Under the pieces are notes generated by a model. The model made no database searches. It was not told the DNA's origin and worked only from the letters and a program-made list of their open reading frames with translations. The translations under genes were made by a program, and so were the position numbers. Below, piece by piece: positions 10,366-38,251 of a DNA stretch of 64,000 nucleotides. The DNA is from Eledone cirrhosa (taxonomy: Eukaryota), in contig OZ024743.1 in the NCBI GenBank assembly GCA_964016885.1, positions 306,528,001 to 306,592,000 on the forward strand. The letters run 5' to 3'. Numbering within the stretch: position 1 is the stretch's first letter; each line of letters opens with the position of its first letter.

Positions 10366-10535
10366 ATATATATATGTATATATATGAGAATTAGAACCCT
10401 GTAACTATTAAGCTCTAAGTATAAAGTACAAATAAATACTGAGCCGATTAACAATATATAGTAAGAAACACGAGGTGATGAATTCATCTTTCTGTGTGAA
10501 CGTTGGCAAATAGTGTTTGTGGCATTTAATCGCAA

Positions 10536-10613
10536 TCTCTCGCTGATGAAGCCCAGGATTATCTGTTACAAACACACTCAGGGCGAAACAGATTAGGGAT
10601 AATCTGTCCGAGA
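10536..10613 (+). ncRNA. Type I hammerhead ribozyme (copy 1)
   Basis: TCTCG-CTGATGA-A-GCCC..GGGC-GAAA-CAGATTA(GGGA)TAATCTG-TC^CGAGA: complete core, three stems and a GUC cleavage triplet. Confidence 0.92.
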
Positions 10614-11006
10614 CATATAATGGTTATTGAGGCGGTTTGTATTATTATGATAATATATTTTTATTTTCATTTTGTCATTCTGTCTGTTTCTTGGTTAAAT
10701 ATTTCAAGTATATGTGGTTTTTCAACCCTTGTAATTTTAGACACACGGTTTACTGTGTTTCTTACTATATATTGTTAATCGGCTCAGTATTTATTTGTAC
10801 TTTATACTTAGAGCTTAATAGTTACAGGGTTCTAATTCTCATATATATATTTCTGCTCCCTTACAAGTTGAGCTATTAAGTTGTGCGTGTTGGACTGTTA
10901 TTTCTGTTCAATACGCGCTTACCACGTTTGACTGGCGAAGCACGAGGTGATGAATTCATCTTTCTGTGTGAACGTTGGCAAATAGTGTTTGTGGCATTTA
11001 ATCGCA

Positions 11007-11088
11007 ATCTCTCGCTGATGAAGCCCAGGATTATCTGTTACAAACACACTCAGGGCGAAACAGATTAGGGATAATCTGTACGAGAGAT
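11007..11088 (+). ncRNA. Type I hammerhead ribozyme (copy 2)
   Basis: ATCTCTCG-CTGATGA..GAAA-CAGATTA(GGGA)TAATCTG-TA^CGAGAGAT: 8-bp stem I and a GUA triplet. Confidence 0.92.
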
Positions 11089-11205
11089 ATAATGGTTATT
11101 GAGGCGGTTTGTATTATTATGATAATATATTTTTATTTTCATTTTGTCATTCTCTCTATATATGTATATGTATATATGTATATATGTATATATGTATATA
11201 TATAT

Positions 11206-11818
11206 GTCAGGTCACCAGTTGGTGCTACTAGTAACATGTATCCCAGTACAACCTGTCTCATGGTCGGGTCGTTGGCGACTAAACTGACAACCCCACCAAG
11301 GTTTCTTGGTGAGGAGGGTGACTTTGGACATCCTGCAGGACAAAAAACAAAACCTGTCAAAGGGCAAAGGAGCTCTTAAGAGTCAATGGCCATCCAAAAA
11401 TCACCGAGAGAGATGACCCCTTAGCCTTTGTCAAGGCAGAATTCTAGGAGAAGGAAAACTCTGATATAACACCTGCAACCCTGATGGTATCCAATGATGT
11501 TGGCTTGTTCTTCTTTTTGGTAAATATCATCTTGGTTAAGAGAGTGGGACTGGCTTTGTGCAGTGCCTTTGCTCACTATAAAAGCTTCACGGCACAGGCA
11601 TTGCTTTATATCTGGAGATCTCTCTGCACTTGTCGTCACATGGTACCATGGGCCGAGCACTATGTGTCAGTAATTGTCACAAGTGTAGTGTTTGTACCAG
11701 AGTTTTCAAGTCGCTGGCTGGACTAAAAATTCACACTCGTTCAGCGCATCAGTAGGGGTTCTCCTACATGGATATAAAGTAGTGGCCGTACTCGAAAACG
11801 AGTTGGCAGCCACCATGT
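11206..11818. mobile_element. ~610 bp non-coding interspersed element between TA tracts; its right 265 bp are duplicated at 10098-10365
   Basis: Sharp boundaries with (TA)n and a partial second copy nearby. Family not identified. Confidence 0.5.
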
Positions 11819-12227
11819 ATATATATATATATATATATATATATATATATATATATATATACATATACATATTGACGACACGTTGTTATTGGTGGTAGAT
11901 TGGTGGTGGTCTCTCTAAAGTGTGTGTATTTACATATTTATATATACCTCTCTCTCTCTCTCTCCCTCTCCCTCTCATTCTCTCTCTCTCTCTCTCACTC
12001 TCTCTCTCTCTAATATATATATATATATATATATATATATATATATATATATATATTCGGGACGATGCTTTCGAACAGAATAGACACAGCTTTGGTCGTT
12101 TCTTCACTCACTCAATAATCTAATTAAGTCCATATTATTAAAATTCAATCAGTGAGGAAGACGGCTTCGTGTGTGTAGCAAAATTAAGATACCCGGGCCG
12201 ATGCACCACTTTCTACGATTTCGATCT

Positions 12228-12497
12228 ACAAGGTTACTTCTTCTACAAGGTTACATCTTCTACGAGGTTACTTCTTCTACAAGATTACATCTTCTACGAG
12301 GTTACATCTTCTACGAGGTTAGATCTTCTACGAGGTTACGTCTTCGACAAGGTTATATCTGCTACGAGGTCACATCTGCTACAAAGTTACATCTTCTACG
12401 AGGTTACATCTGCAACGAGGTTACATCTGCTTCAAGGATGCATTGCCTACGAGGTTACATCTGCTACAAAGTTACATCTCTTACGAGGTTACATCTC
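12228..12497. repeat. 17-bp minisatellite (CTACGAGGTTACATCTT)
   Basis: About 15 tandem units visible. Confidence 0.9.
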
Positions 12498-13067
12498 CTA
12501 ATATAAAGCAATGGATATTTAATATGTAGAGACATTTAACGTAATATGTAATAATAAAATATATAGATATTTGTGTAATTAAATACTTAAATTAATAACA
12601 TGTATATAACAATATGTAGTAATAATTGTTTCTACTTTAGGCACAAGGCCAGCAATTACCCAGTACATTACTGGTACTTTATTTTATCGACCCCGTAAGG
12701 ATGAAAGGCAAAGTTAGTAATAATAAAGTATATATACATTTATGTTTAAATATATAATGTAATAGCATGGTATGCAAGGGATTGATTTTTGAACAATAAT
12801 GTATATTGTTACACGGGTGATATATCTAGTTAAACATATAAACAGCTATTTCCCATAACATATATCTTGTCCAGTAATGAATGGATAACAATCTTAAGGG
12901 ACCTTTAATGTATTATAATAAAACACACTGTATTTAAAATCAAGTATAAATGTATAGTATTATGTAATAGAGATTCTATTGTATCACATTATAATGTGTA
13001 TTAGAGCAAAGATTTTGATTAACTGAATTTAATTAGCTAGTTACCGCCCCTTAAACATTAGCTCCCC

Positions 13068-35536: not shown

Positions 35537-35892
35537 TTATAATTGAGTGGCTGCTATTTGCAGTATAGCAATATAAGGTTGCACTTACCAATGAAACGGT
35601 CGTAAATACCTGGATAAAATCCTTTTCTAAACGCTTACCTGTGTTTTCTCTTTTATACTTTATACTCCAAGATTGAACGGAATTCTTACAAACTTGTGGA
35701 GTTACCCCTAACCGTACGTTGAAACCATCCTTGAAACTGGCTTTCTTAACCAAAAACTGGATCACAATAAGCAATGTTTTGCTTCTCTAACTATATATAT
35801 ATCAAAATTATGGGTGTCATGCCAGAAAGACATGCGCCATATCACCCGCAAAATAAGCTCTAAGATTCTAACGAGTAGGTCCGAGCATTTTA

Positions 35893-35985
35893 TAATAACT
35901 AGAGATTGATTAACATATAAATAAACAGGAATAATCACAGGAGATTATTCATGTTTATTTATATGTTAATCAATCTCTAGTTATA
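35893..35985. repeat. Fold-back hairpin abutting (TA)n
   Basis: ATAACTAGAGATTGATTAACATATAAATAAACA..TGTTTATTTATATGTTAATCAATCTCTAGTTAT. Confidence 0.85.
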
Positions 35986-36683
35986 TATATATATATATAT
36001 ATATATATATATATATATATATATATATATATATATATATATATATATACAAATATAGATTAAGCGAGAATCGCATTTCGGCGGGTAGGAAAGGCGAAAC
36101 GAAACGCAAAAATCATAAATGACACAGGCAAAGTGCTCAATAGTTAACCAGAGCTAAACAATATGTTAAGAAGCCATACAAAACTGAAAAAGTGGTCAAG
36201 AAAGCATCAACCACCTAAGCGAAAAAGCAAATCAAGCTAAACAGGTCAAAACAAAATAAATGATAAAAAATAAATGATAAAACCTGACCTGGACCCCTTG
36301 GAATTGCTATTAAAATCCGAATGCAGGTTTTCTATGACACCTAAATCAAAGTACTGTCTGCTTAAAAATATAAGCTTTAGGTATAATGATCGAACAAAGA
36401 ATATCACGTTATCAACAGGTATCTTGCTCCGTACCAAATTTGTGAGTGACACAGAGGCAAGTTAAACCACGTGTGGAAATCACAAGGGGAAATAACCCCA
36501 GATTTTGGCAAAAGAAATCAGTAAGTGTATATCATGCAAAAAATTGCATAAATAGCACAAATCGAATAAGTTCTCAACCGGGTGGTTTTTAAAATAAACT
36601 TATACAATTAACCTGTCAATAAAAATTATTAACAAGTTAATTGTAAGACACGGGAGATTAATACAAATATAGATTCAGCGAGA

Positions 36684-36933
36684 TGCAAGCATGTCAGAGG
36701 TCAGATTAGTTGAAAACACACGAAACACATTAATAATTATCAATTTCATTTAGTGTCATTGGAGGTCACCTAAAAAACAAATACAATTCTTTTTTATATA
36801 TATATATATATATATATATATATAAAAGAATTGTATTTGTTTCTTAGGTGACCTCCAATGACACTAAATGAAATTGATAATTATTAATGTTTTTCGTGTG
36901 TTTTCAACTAATCTGACCTCTGACATGCTTGCA
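36684..36933. repeat. ~110-bp-arm inverted repeat centred on (TA)n (head-to-head Helitron-like 5' ends)
   Basis: TGCAAGCATG...ATACAATTCTTTT-(TA)n-AAAGAATTGTAT...CATGCTTGCA. Confidence 0.8.
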
Positions 36934-37294
36934 ATGCACTTTTTCACCGAAAACGGAATAGAGGGTGAGGTGGGGTCTCTCGAACATTCCCGGCAATTTT
37001 TTTAGTGAAAATGTTTTTTCTTTTTTATGTTTTTCCTTTCTTTTCGACCGATCTGACATCCGATTCACGCGCCGACGACTCCTTTTTTCCGAAAACGGAG
37101 GTGGAGAGGGAGGGGGCTTCGGAGTTACAGGTAAACACTTCTCAGGCGTATGAATCTAAAGAAAAGCACCCGCAGGGGAGCACGAAGAATTTTTTTTTTC
37201 CTAGGTTATTTTCGTATGTATTCAGCCCTCTTACTTTCGACATGCTCGCAATTGCCCACTTTTTCCCGAAAACAGAATAGGTGGGACGGCTGAA

Positions 37295-37460
37295 GGAGTA
37301 ACTATAAATTATATGTGCAAATACGTTAATAAGAGTTCTGATGCTACCATGTTTGCGCTACAACAACGGAATATTTCCGACCAGGTGATCAACACGGTCG
37401 ATATATCAACAGTAACGAAGCATTCTAGCGCATTTTTGGATTTCCAATGCAGGCCCATTA
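37295..37460 (+). pseudogene. Helitron RepHel remnant
   Basis: INYMCKYVNKSSD and, frameshifted, GRYINSNEAF*RIFGFPM resemble the conserved Helitron Rep-region motifs KYICKYVNKGSD and RYISSNEAxWRIFxF. Confidence 0.75.
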
Positions 37461-37689
37461 CCCACCGGTGTAAAAATTCGAAAATAACAGCTAGTGTATT
37501 TTCAGTCTAAAATGAAGCCCAACAAGCGATGACACCAAGAAAGACAGCTTGTTAGCATCTTTTGTAGGTTGAGCCAACTTATGCAGCTTCATATGCAAAT
37601 GAAATTAATCACCTCATTTACACAGACGATAAAACTATATATTCTCGGCTGTTTTCAAGTCCAGCAGTCGCAGAGCATTGGGAGGGATC

Positions 37690-37727
37690 GTCCTGACGAT
37701 GGCCAGTCAAGCCAGAAATGCATAGAC
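37690..37727 (+). ncRNA. Minimal type I hammerhead
   Basis: GTC-CTGACGA-TGGC(CAGTCAA)GCCA-GAAA-TGCA-TA^GAC, with palindromic stem III ATGCAT. Confidence 0.82.
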
Positions 37728-38251
37728 CGTTGTCCCCCTTGCTTCTGCTGGACAACACCAGAGGGCGTTAGCCCCCCGGTGTTCGCATAGCTACGGCTTC
37801 CTAAAATCGTATTTCTTTCGAAATACGAAATTTCTATACATATTGTATAAAGCTATGCTTGAAGCGAAATCCTATTTCTATATATATATATATAAACAAA
37901 TGTCCCGCCAGACCTTTCGTCTCCCCATGGTAACCAACTTATCAAAATTCATGACATTCTATGTCCATATATAAATATCTATATGAACTAATCATCGACA
38001 TATATGCACATATTAATCTGTTTCGTTTTCAAATTTCCACTTGTAACTAATATATGCATGTTTTCATGCTTCTGTACGCATATACATATATATATATGCG
38101 TGCCCACATACACACACACACGTGTATATATATATATACATATATATGTATATATATATATATATATATATATATATGTGTGTGTGTGTGTGTGTGTGTG
38201 TGTGTGTGTGTGTGTGTGTGTGTGTGTGTGTGTGTGTGTGTGTGCGTGTAA

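What the first reader, a model, noticed from the sequence alone, without database searches (positions are those of the whole stretch)
10381..37880. Hammerhead/PLE hotspot: about 14 hammerhead motifs from about 10 families in 28 kb
Seen: motifs at 10536, 11007, 13300, 13812(-), 16270, 16618(-), 18268, 21602(-), 23558(-), 26201(-), 28350, 32484, 32872(-) and 37690. Each of the six PLE ORF remnants has its own hammerhead-like motif downstream, on the coding strand. Inference: an ecosystem of autonomous PLEs and ORF-less ribozyme parasites that all use the same TA-microsatellite landing pads.
Basis: partly seen in the sequence, partly recalled or inferred. Interest (0 to 1): 0.8.

Follow-up and report, generated by a model that had tools for sequence, protein, structure and literature searches.

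The report
Cluster of Penelope hammerhead ribozymes
This DNA holds ten separate jumping-element insertions, six Penelope-type and four small non-coding ones, each carrying a predicted self-cutting RNA motif and nine ending in TA repeats; it is a known kind of system, and this stretch is only two to three times richer than a genome that is full of such motifs.

Summary
13 of 14 listed sites fit a type I hammerhead descriptor (shuffles 0-1), and the 14th is a point-mutated copy of an abundant family. They belong to 10 insertions: six Penelope-like elements (PLEs; two Hydra-type, four with a Neptune/Nematis-type linker), each with its motif in its 3' pseudo-LTR, and four ORF-less 320-470-nt tandem-unit elements (retrozyme-like). 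Nine of ten 3' ends abut (TA)n.

'Hotspot' is overstated. In 40 random 30-kb blocks an untuned scan averages 3.1 motifs (window 6; 5 of 40 reach it); a window-tuned scan averages 4.3 (window 13; 1 of 40). This is a top 1-12% cluster, made conspicuous by satellite deserts on both sides. TA supply is not raised, and no parasite-helper pair was found by sequence. PLE hammerheads, retrozymes and TA targeting are published, and this scan reported the same system on other DNA of this genome.

What stands out is genome-wide: about 240,000-310,000 motifs extrapolated, at least 32 families, and twofold clumping. Cleavage and expression are untested.

The parts
10386..11157 (+). ORF-less retrozyme-like element, 472-nt unit, partial dimer with a short inverted head; two monomer-type hammerheads (cores 10543, 11015; 8-bp stem III)
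   Evidence: dispersed copies 93-99% identical, 1231 first-look candidates
13068..13608 (+). ORF-less retrozyme-like element, 429-nt unit plus 114-nt redundancy; hammerhead core 13305 with a mutated stem III palindrome
   Evidence: 52 hits in 1.4 Mb, including a 30-motif array
13742..14065 (-). ORF-less retrozyme-like element (family unit about 464 nt); minimal hammerhead, core 13891
14262..16432 (+). Hydra-type PLE 3' remnant: endonuclease C-terminus to 14562, 1.7-kb microsatellite-rich UTR, hammerhead core 16279
   Evidence: L227 and L236 are collinear from the ORF end to the start of the motif; Hydra-like RT upstream in 8 of 14 other copies
16481..18371 (-). PLE remnant with CX4CxxC linker and GIY-YIG (17358-18041); U3-A8 hammerheads at 16652(-) and, in the inverted head, 18273(+)
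   Evidence: (I3)
21440..22876 (-). PLE remnant with CX4CxxC linker and GIY-YIG (22016-about 22790); minimal hammerhead, core 21635
   Evidence: (L046 collinear 21484-22670)
23362..25430 (-). Young PLE, RT C-half plus GIY-YIG (24195-25430); hammerhead-like motif with CCGUUGA core at 23589; 3' end not in (TA)n here
   Evidence: ORF linked in 12 of 14 other copies
25993..32793 (+). Full-length very young PLE: inverted 5' copy, 5' pseudo-LTR, ORF 28558-32215 split by a one-base indel near 30750, 3' pseudo-LTR; motifs at 26237(-), 28356(+), 32490(+)
   Evidence: (I1, I2, D14); 87 of 87 scored matches 100% identical, many in 1217-aa open frames
32816..35802 (-). Hydra-type PLE (RT 33923-35536, CxCX5C linker, endonuclease with stops); U3-A8 motif with long stem II insert, core 32969; inverted head with tail 35526-35802 holding a half motif at 35593
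   Evidence: (I10)
37558..37879 (+). ORF-less retrozyme-like element, about 324-nt unit; minimal hammerhead, core 37693

Best explanation
The region holds ten independent insertions, six Penelope-like retrotransposons and four ORF-less tandem-unit elements, each with a predicted type I hammerhead ribozyme, and it is an upper-tail cluster (2-3 times the mean) of a genome-wide population, likely built by Penelope enzymes inserting RNA copies at TA repeats next to earlier insertions. Shown: the motifs, the families, pseudo-LTR/inverted-head anatomy, TA junctions, and local and background densities. Inferred: read-through transcripts are cut to unit length by the hammerheads (most as dimers through palindromic stem III); the PLE GIY-YIG endonuclease nicks (TA)n and its RT copies either PLE RNA or, in trans, the small ORF-less RNAs, possibly as circles. 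Also inferred: clusters arise because each insertion leaves TA at both ends and long insertions are tolerated in this satellite-flanked DNA.
For: 13 of 14 motifs pass versus 0-1 in shuffles. Across fetched DNA there are 32 multi-locus families with different stems; the unconstrained central pair of stem III is palindromic in 18 of 22 families (p 7e-7 against 0.3), as in PMC4209133. ORF and motif are collinear in other copies. The four ORF-less families recur as dispersed 90-99% copies with tandem units and inverted heads like the PLEs; their circularised units fold with z -4.0 to -7.6. 93 of 117 background motifs have (TA)4 within 250 nt downstream versus 41% of random positions. Other-family motifs are twice as frequent beside a focal element (48 in 179 kb versus 24 expected). 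Two PLE pairs here share one TA tract tail to tail. An intact 1217-aa family is present as a candidate enzyme source.
Against: No cleavage or expression data. Eight of nine tested Xenopus retrozyme dimers did not cleave in the 2026 preprint, and PLE minimal hammerheads cleave poorly in vitro (PMC4209133). In random DNA only 4 of 20 PLE remnants had a same-strand motif within 2 kb downstream (8 of 20 had an opposite-strand one), and only 7 of 120 motifs had a remnant upstream. No ORF-less family resembles a pseudo-LTR here (one 37-nt hit, E 0.005), so the helper is not identified. TA count does not predict motif count across blocks (Spearman 0.24, p 0.18, 34 blocks), which weakens the landing-pad feedback. 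One of ten 3' ends is not in TA. The clumping P value treats inverted pairs as independent.
Confidence: 0.8

Rival explanations
1. The locus is a true special-purpose hotspot, for example a piRNA-cluster-like trap or an unusually accessible target, that collects PLE clades far above background.
For: Six PLE coding remnants versus 0.7 per 30 kb, with 0 of 40 blocks reaching 6. With 40 public homologues as queries: 5 segments in 27.5 kb versus 10 in 1.2 Mb. Nine families versus a mean of 2.6. Only 2 strict motifs in 200 kb of flank.
Against: Queries and the permissive descriptor were derived from this window. The negative-binomial tail is about 1% for both measures, implying on the order of 1,000 such 30-kb windows in 3 Gb. 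The interval was drawn around the motifs. 12 of 20 flank stretches are pure satellite. Elements lie on both strands.
Confidence: 0.12
2. The hammerheads are passengers, partly decayed motifs that ride in pseudo-LTRs and are not needed for mobility; the small elements are ordinary SINE-like or satellite derivatives.
For: The youngest family carries a motif with only 2 bp of stem I in 9 of 9 copies; another young family has a CCGUUGA core in all 19 copies; monomer folds are not more stable than shuffles. Naiads thrive without canonical hammerheads (PMC8557442).
Against: Core, stems and palindromic stem III are kept in 32 sequence-unrelated families, which needs selection on the fold; the 472-nt family has a complete monomer fold.
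Confidence: 0.08

Closest known systems
Minimal type I hammerheads in pseudo-LTRs of Penelope-like elements (Cervera and de la Pena 2014, PMC4209133; parts 1-2 of 4 read)
   Same: Type I fold, extra base after A9, palindromic short stem III, U3-A8 variant, many families per genome, mostly solitary copies, opposite-strand pairs 100-700 nt apart
   Different: Octopod-like host; extrapolated 80-100 motifs per Mb against published totals of about 4,000 (coelacanth) and 9,000 (X. tropicalis), with different descriptors; a fixed CCGUUGA core that I did not find in the passages read
Metazoan non-LTR retrozymes (Cervera and de la Pena 2020, PMC7229834, passages; Li, Clavereau and Pollet 2026, 10.64898/2026.07.22.740005, parts 1-3 of 5)
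   Same: ORF-less tandem units of a few hundred nt, one type I hammerhead each, GC 35-43%, self-paired predicted circles, coexistence with PLEs
   Different: Three of four families here carry minimal rather than canonical hammerheads; copies show PLE-type inverted heads and TA junctions; no pseudo-LTR homology was found, unlike 24 of 57 Xenopus families; circular RNA not shown
Hydra, Neptune and Nematis clades of EN+ PLEs (Craig et al. 2021, PMC8557442, passages)
   Same: C-terminal GIY-YIG, linker zinc-finger-like motifs, hammerheads, tandem/inverted insertions with tails, (TA)n insertion
   Different: Clade called from linker motifs only; no reference RTs were available for a tree; one family has an incomplete CX4CPI linker and one a long Asn-rich in-frame insert

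Membership tests
Type I hammerhead ribozyme | Conserved core CUGANGA...GAAA...UH, or a covarying C3-G8 pair | tested here: met
   10 of 14 have CUGANGA, 3 have U3-A8, 1 has CCGUUGA (deviant)
Type I hammerhead ribozyme | Stems I, II and III (III as hairpin or palindrome) | tested here: met
   13 of 14 pass; 3 copies have only 2 bp of stem I; 13305 is mutated; covariation across 32 families
Type I hammerhead ribozyme | Site-specific self-cleavage | not testable with these tools
   Needs in vitro transcription
EN+ Penelope-like element | Single ORF with RT and C-terminal GIY-YIG | tested here: met
   Pfam RVT_1 and/or GIY-YIG for 4 of 6 (two RVT/GIY hits below gathering); the two Hydra-type ones have no Pfam hit and rest on motifs and tblastn
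EN+ Penelope-like element | Pseudo-LTRs, inverted 5' copy, tail, hammerhead in pseudo-LTR | tested here: met
   Inverted repeats I1, I2, I3, I10 and direct repeat D14; tail 35664-35802
Hydra clade | CxCX5C linker, no CCHH, CxxC and CxH late in the endonuclease | tested here: met
   Seen in the 33923 element; only the C-terminal part is present at 14262, with Hydra-like RT upstream in other copies
Neptune versus Nematis versus Penelope/Poseidon | RT phylogeny with reference elements | not tested
   No reference set on hand; the CX2-5CxxC linker in three families argues against Penelope/Poseidon
Non-LTR retrozyme | ORF-less tandem unit with a type I hammerhead per unit, dispersed copies | tested here: met
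   Longest Met-ORF 32-69 aa; periods 472, 429-553, 464, 324
Non-LTR retrozyme | Expressed as circular RNA | not testable with these tools
Non-LTR retrozyme | Derived from a PLE pseudo-LTR (Li et al. 2026) | tested here: inconclusive
   No homology to the six pseudo-LTRs here; 1 of 212 unit hits lay downstream of any ORF remnant; only about 2 Mb searched
Non-circularly permuted (type SGC) hammerhead | Core strands in scrambled order | tested here: not met
   An any-order scan of the window gave type I only, plus one palindrome artefact

The most novel reading that the evidence does not exclude
This genome carries the densest hammerhead population on record (about a quarter of a million motifs, 30 or more families), in which PLEs of several clades and their ORF-less RNA-circle parasites insert preferentially into each other's TA tails, and variant cores fixed in active families (CCGUUGA; U3-A8 with a 75-nt insert) still cleave.
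Probability: 0.3. Interest if true: 0.55.

Novelty: new member of a known kind. Interest (0 to 1): 0.33.

Why it matters
The locus itself adds little: it is a rich sample of a published system. Its value is as a compact test set. Very young intact PLE families and several young ORF-less families coexist, so the proposed but unshown step, mobilisation of retrozymes by PLE proteins, could be assayed with natural partners. The genome-wide load, if confirmed by a full scan with published descriptors, would exceed the counts in the papers read (coral above 6,000, mussel about 5,000, axolotl up to 120,000 in 28 Gb) several-fold per megabase, and would mean many repeats now filed as unclassified SINEs in such genomes are ribozyme elements.

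Tried and rejected
Rfam scans were swamped by microsatellite miRNA models and are not useful for minimal hammerheads. Scrambled-order hammerheads, a lead from earlier notes, were not found in the window; my scan also found none in 1.2 Mb of background at a stricter threshold, so it may be insensitive. The idea that the 37693 motif belongs to the adjacent Helitron-like remnant was rejected: 14 of 14 other copies align only over 37558-37900. The idea that the 32872 site is only a half core was rejected once a U3-A8 core was found 97 nt upstream; sister Hydra families fetched for covariation gave no homologous motif. Helper pairing by 3'-end similarity gave nothing. A genome search with 28290-28470 returned nothing because common words are skipped. 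No RNA holder was listed; three contig runs behaved like genomic DNA and say nothing on expression. The Lunse et al. paper on PLE hammerhead variants (PMC5785218) is not held, so whether the CCGUUGA core is described there is open; a search for 'hammerhead' with 'A6U' listed one twister paper. Searches for octopus or cephalopod with hammerhead listed no paper on cephalopod hammerheads. Supplements of Craig 2021 and of the 2026 preprint were not seen and may list cephalopod elements.
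Full report
Setting. The window lies on a 379-Mb contig of a 3.0-Gb animal assembly. The best public relative of the largest ORF is an Octopus vulgaris protein at 66%, so the host is probably an octopod (inference).

Motifs. I wrote a type I hammerhead scanner. The strict version (CUGANGA, three stems) finds 6 motifs in 10381-37880 and none elsewhere in the window; 200 global and 200 local dinucleotide shuffles give means of 0 and 0.015. A permissive version, adjusted after seeing the window, finds 13 of the 14 listed sites, with a shuffle mean of 0.1. The remaining site (13305) is a copy of an abundant family with one change in the stem III palindrome. Three motifs use the U3-A8 core described in PMC4209133. 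One family has a CCGUUGA core in all 19 copies seen. The 32969 motif is the weakest: stem II encloses 75 nt and the minimum-energy fold differs. Only the 472-nt family folds as a complete monomer; the others have palindromic stem III, the published sign of dimer cleavage. Over all fetched DNA, 71 clusters were found, 32 in two or more loci; in 18 of 22 families with a short even stem III the unconstrained central pair is palindromic.

Elements. The 14 motifs belong to ten insertions. Six are PLEs. Pfam finds RT and/or GIY-YIG in four. Two carry Hydra-clade marks as defined in PMC8557442. Three have the CX4CxxC linker and one an incomplete CX4CPI form; Neptune versus Nematis is unresolved. Inverted and direct repeats give the usual pseudo-LTR anatomy. 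ORF-to-motif linkage recurs in other copies: 12 of 14 for the 23589 family and 7 of 14 for 32969, 9 of 9 for the full-length family, two collinear loci for 16279 and one for 21635. For 16652 it rests on the window's own inverted head. The full-length family is very young: 87 of 87 scored matches are 100% identical and many lie in 1217-aa open frames, while the window's copy is split by a one-base indel. Four insertions are ORF-less (longest Met-ORF 32-69 aa), with unit periods of 472, 429-553, about 464 and 324 nt, dispersed copies and inverted heads. Nine of ten 3' ends and all four inverted heads abut TA runs.

Is it a hotspot? I drew 40 seeded-random 30-kb blocks, 20 from the four largest contigs and 20 from ten smaller ones; positions were limited to lower-bound lengths, so the sample is not strictly uniform. 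Strict scan: 124 motifs in 1.2 Mb (shuffles 0-3), mean 3.1, and 5 of 40 blocks reach the window's 6. Tuned scan: mean 4.3 motifs and 2.6 families against 13 and 9; 1 of 40 reaches either. PLE coding remnants, using the window's own proteins as queries: mean 0.7, maximum 5, against 6; public homologues give 5 segments here and 10 in 1.2 Mb. Negative-binomial tails are about 1%. The cluster is real but of a size expected about a thousand times in this genome (inference). It looks stark because 12 of 20 flanking 10-kb stretches are pure satellite and the 200 kb of flank hold 2 strict motifs. Extrapolated load: 310,000 strict motifs (bootstrap 187,000-477,000), or 238,000 (174,000-305,000) after dropping the one block with a 31-motif array.

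Landing pads and pairing. In background DNA (two array loci dropped), 93 of 117 motifs have (TA)4 within 250 nt downstream against 41% of random positions. Beside focal elements, other-family motifs occur at 0.27 per kb against 0.135 in non-satellite, non-array background (48 observed, 24 expected). However, TA tracts are not raised here (33 in 27.5 kb; background mean 48 per 30 kb), and they do not predict motif counts across 34 blocks. The strand rule is weak in random DNA: 4 of 20 remnants had a same-strand motif downstream and 8 of 20 an opposite-strand one; 7 of 120 motifs had a remnant upstream. Most motifs therefore sit in ORF-less stubs or small elements. No small element matched a pseudo-LTR.

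Mechanism. Most likely, hammerheads trim read-through RNA to unit length, and PLE endonuclease-RT proteins nick (TA)n and copy PLE RNA or, in trans, the small RNAs. Internal priming that yields the tail is shown for an anole PLE (PMC11167929, part 1 of 4 read). Cleavage, circles and trans-mobilisation are inferred here, not shown. Against easy acceptance: only one of nine Xenopus dimers cleaved in the 2026 preprint.

Comparison. PLE hammerheads (PMC4209133), non-LTR retrozymes and their proposed PLE helpers (PMC7229834; preprint 10.64898/2026.07.22.740005), (TA)n targeting (PMC8557442) and insertion next to existing PLE copies (review PMC6765202, passages) are published. An O. vulgaris repeat annotation lists 31 recently active PLE families and never mentions ribozymes (PMC13282606, passages). 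Earlier notes of this scan describe the same system elsewhere in this genome.

Verdict. Observation confirmed; interpretation partly supported; new member of a known kind; interest 0.33.

Noticed in passing
L254 (G000:C1:42755500-42760500), about 1757-4031: A five-unit arm of the 472-nt family: units 2 and 4 are identical and differ from unit 3 at 6 sites, the hammerhead region of unit 5 matches unit 3, and units 2-5 share a stem II change. This fits copying round a dimeric RNA circle with weakened ribozymes, or duplication of a dimer in DNA.
   Followed up: partly
window 10097-11817: Two 288-nt, 98% identical repeats with TG...CA ends flank a 340-nt internal part; the 472-nt element sits in the TA run after the first. 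Possibly a small non-autonomous LTR element (15-17 hits per 1.4 Mb).
   Followed up: no
window 37230-37510 (+): Frameshifted stretch resembling a Helitron Rep segment (resemblance recalled; Pfam gave no hit), into which the 324-nt element is inserted.
   Followed up: partly
window 29220-29810 (+): About 170 codons of Asn-rich AAC/AAT repeat lie in frame in the young PLE ORF (1217 aa in intact copies versus 803 aa for the closest public protein).
   Followed up: no
L020-L021 (G000:C1:282130969-282150968): Thirty-motif array of the 13305 family in alternating orientations, units 466-553 nt.
   Followed up: no
L037 6481-8941 and L074 605-2453: Tandem 615-nt units with U3-A8 hammerheads, about 80-nt stem II inserts and long stem III hairpins; relatives with covarying stems in L010, L140, L222.
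   Followed up: no
L044 4066-4085, L050 5760-5778: A hammerhead family found as overlapping opposite-strand pairs about 20 nt apart.
   Followed up: no
window 1-7600, 46800-48300, 54300-64000 and flanks L132-L137, L141-L146: Long GGT-rich and hexamer-like satellite tracts; about 60 kb of pure tandem repeat on each side of the window.
   Followed up: partly
window 36684-36933 and 38407-38846: Two long near-perfect inverted repeats centred on TA or TG runs, MITE-like or PLE-type head-to-head insertions without a detected hammerhead.
   Followed up: no
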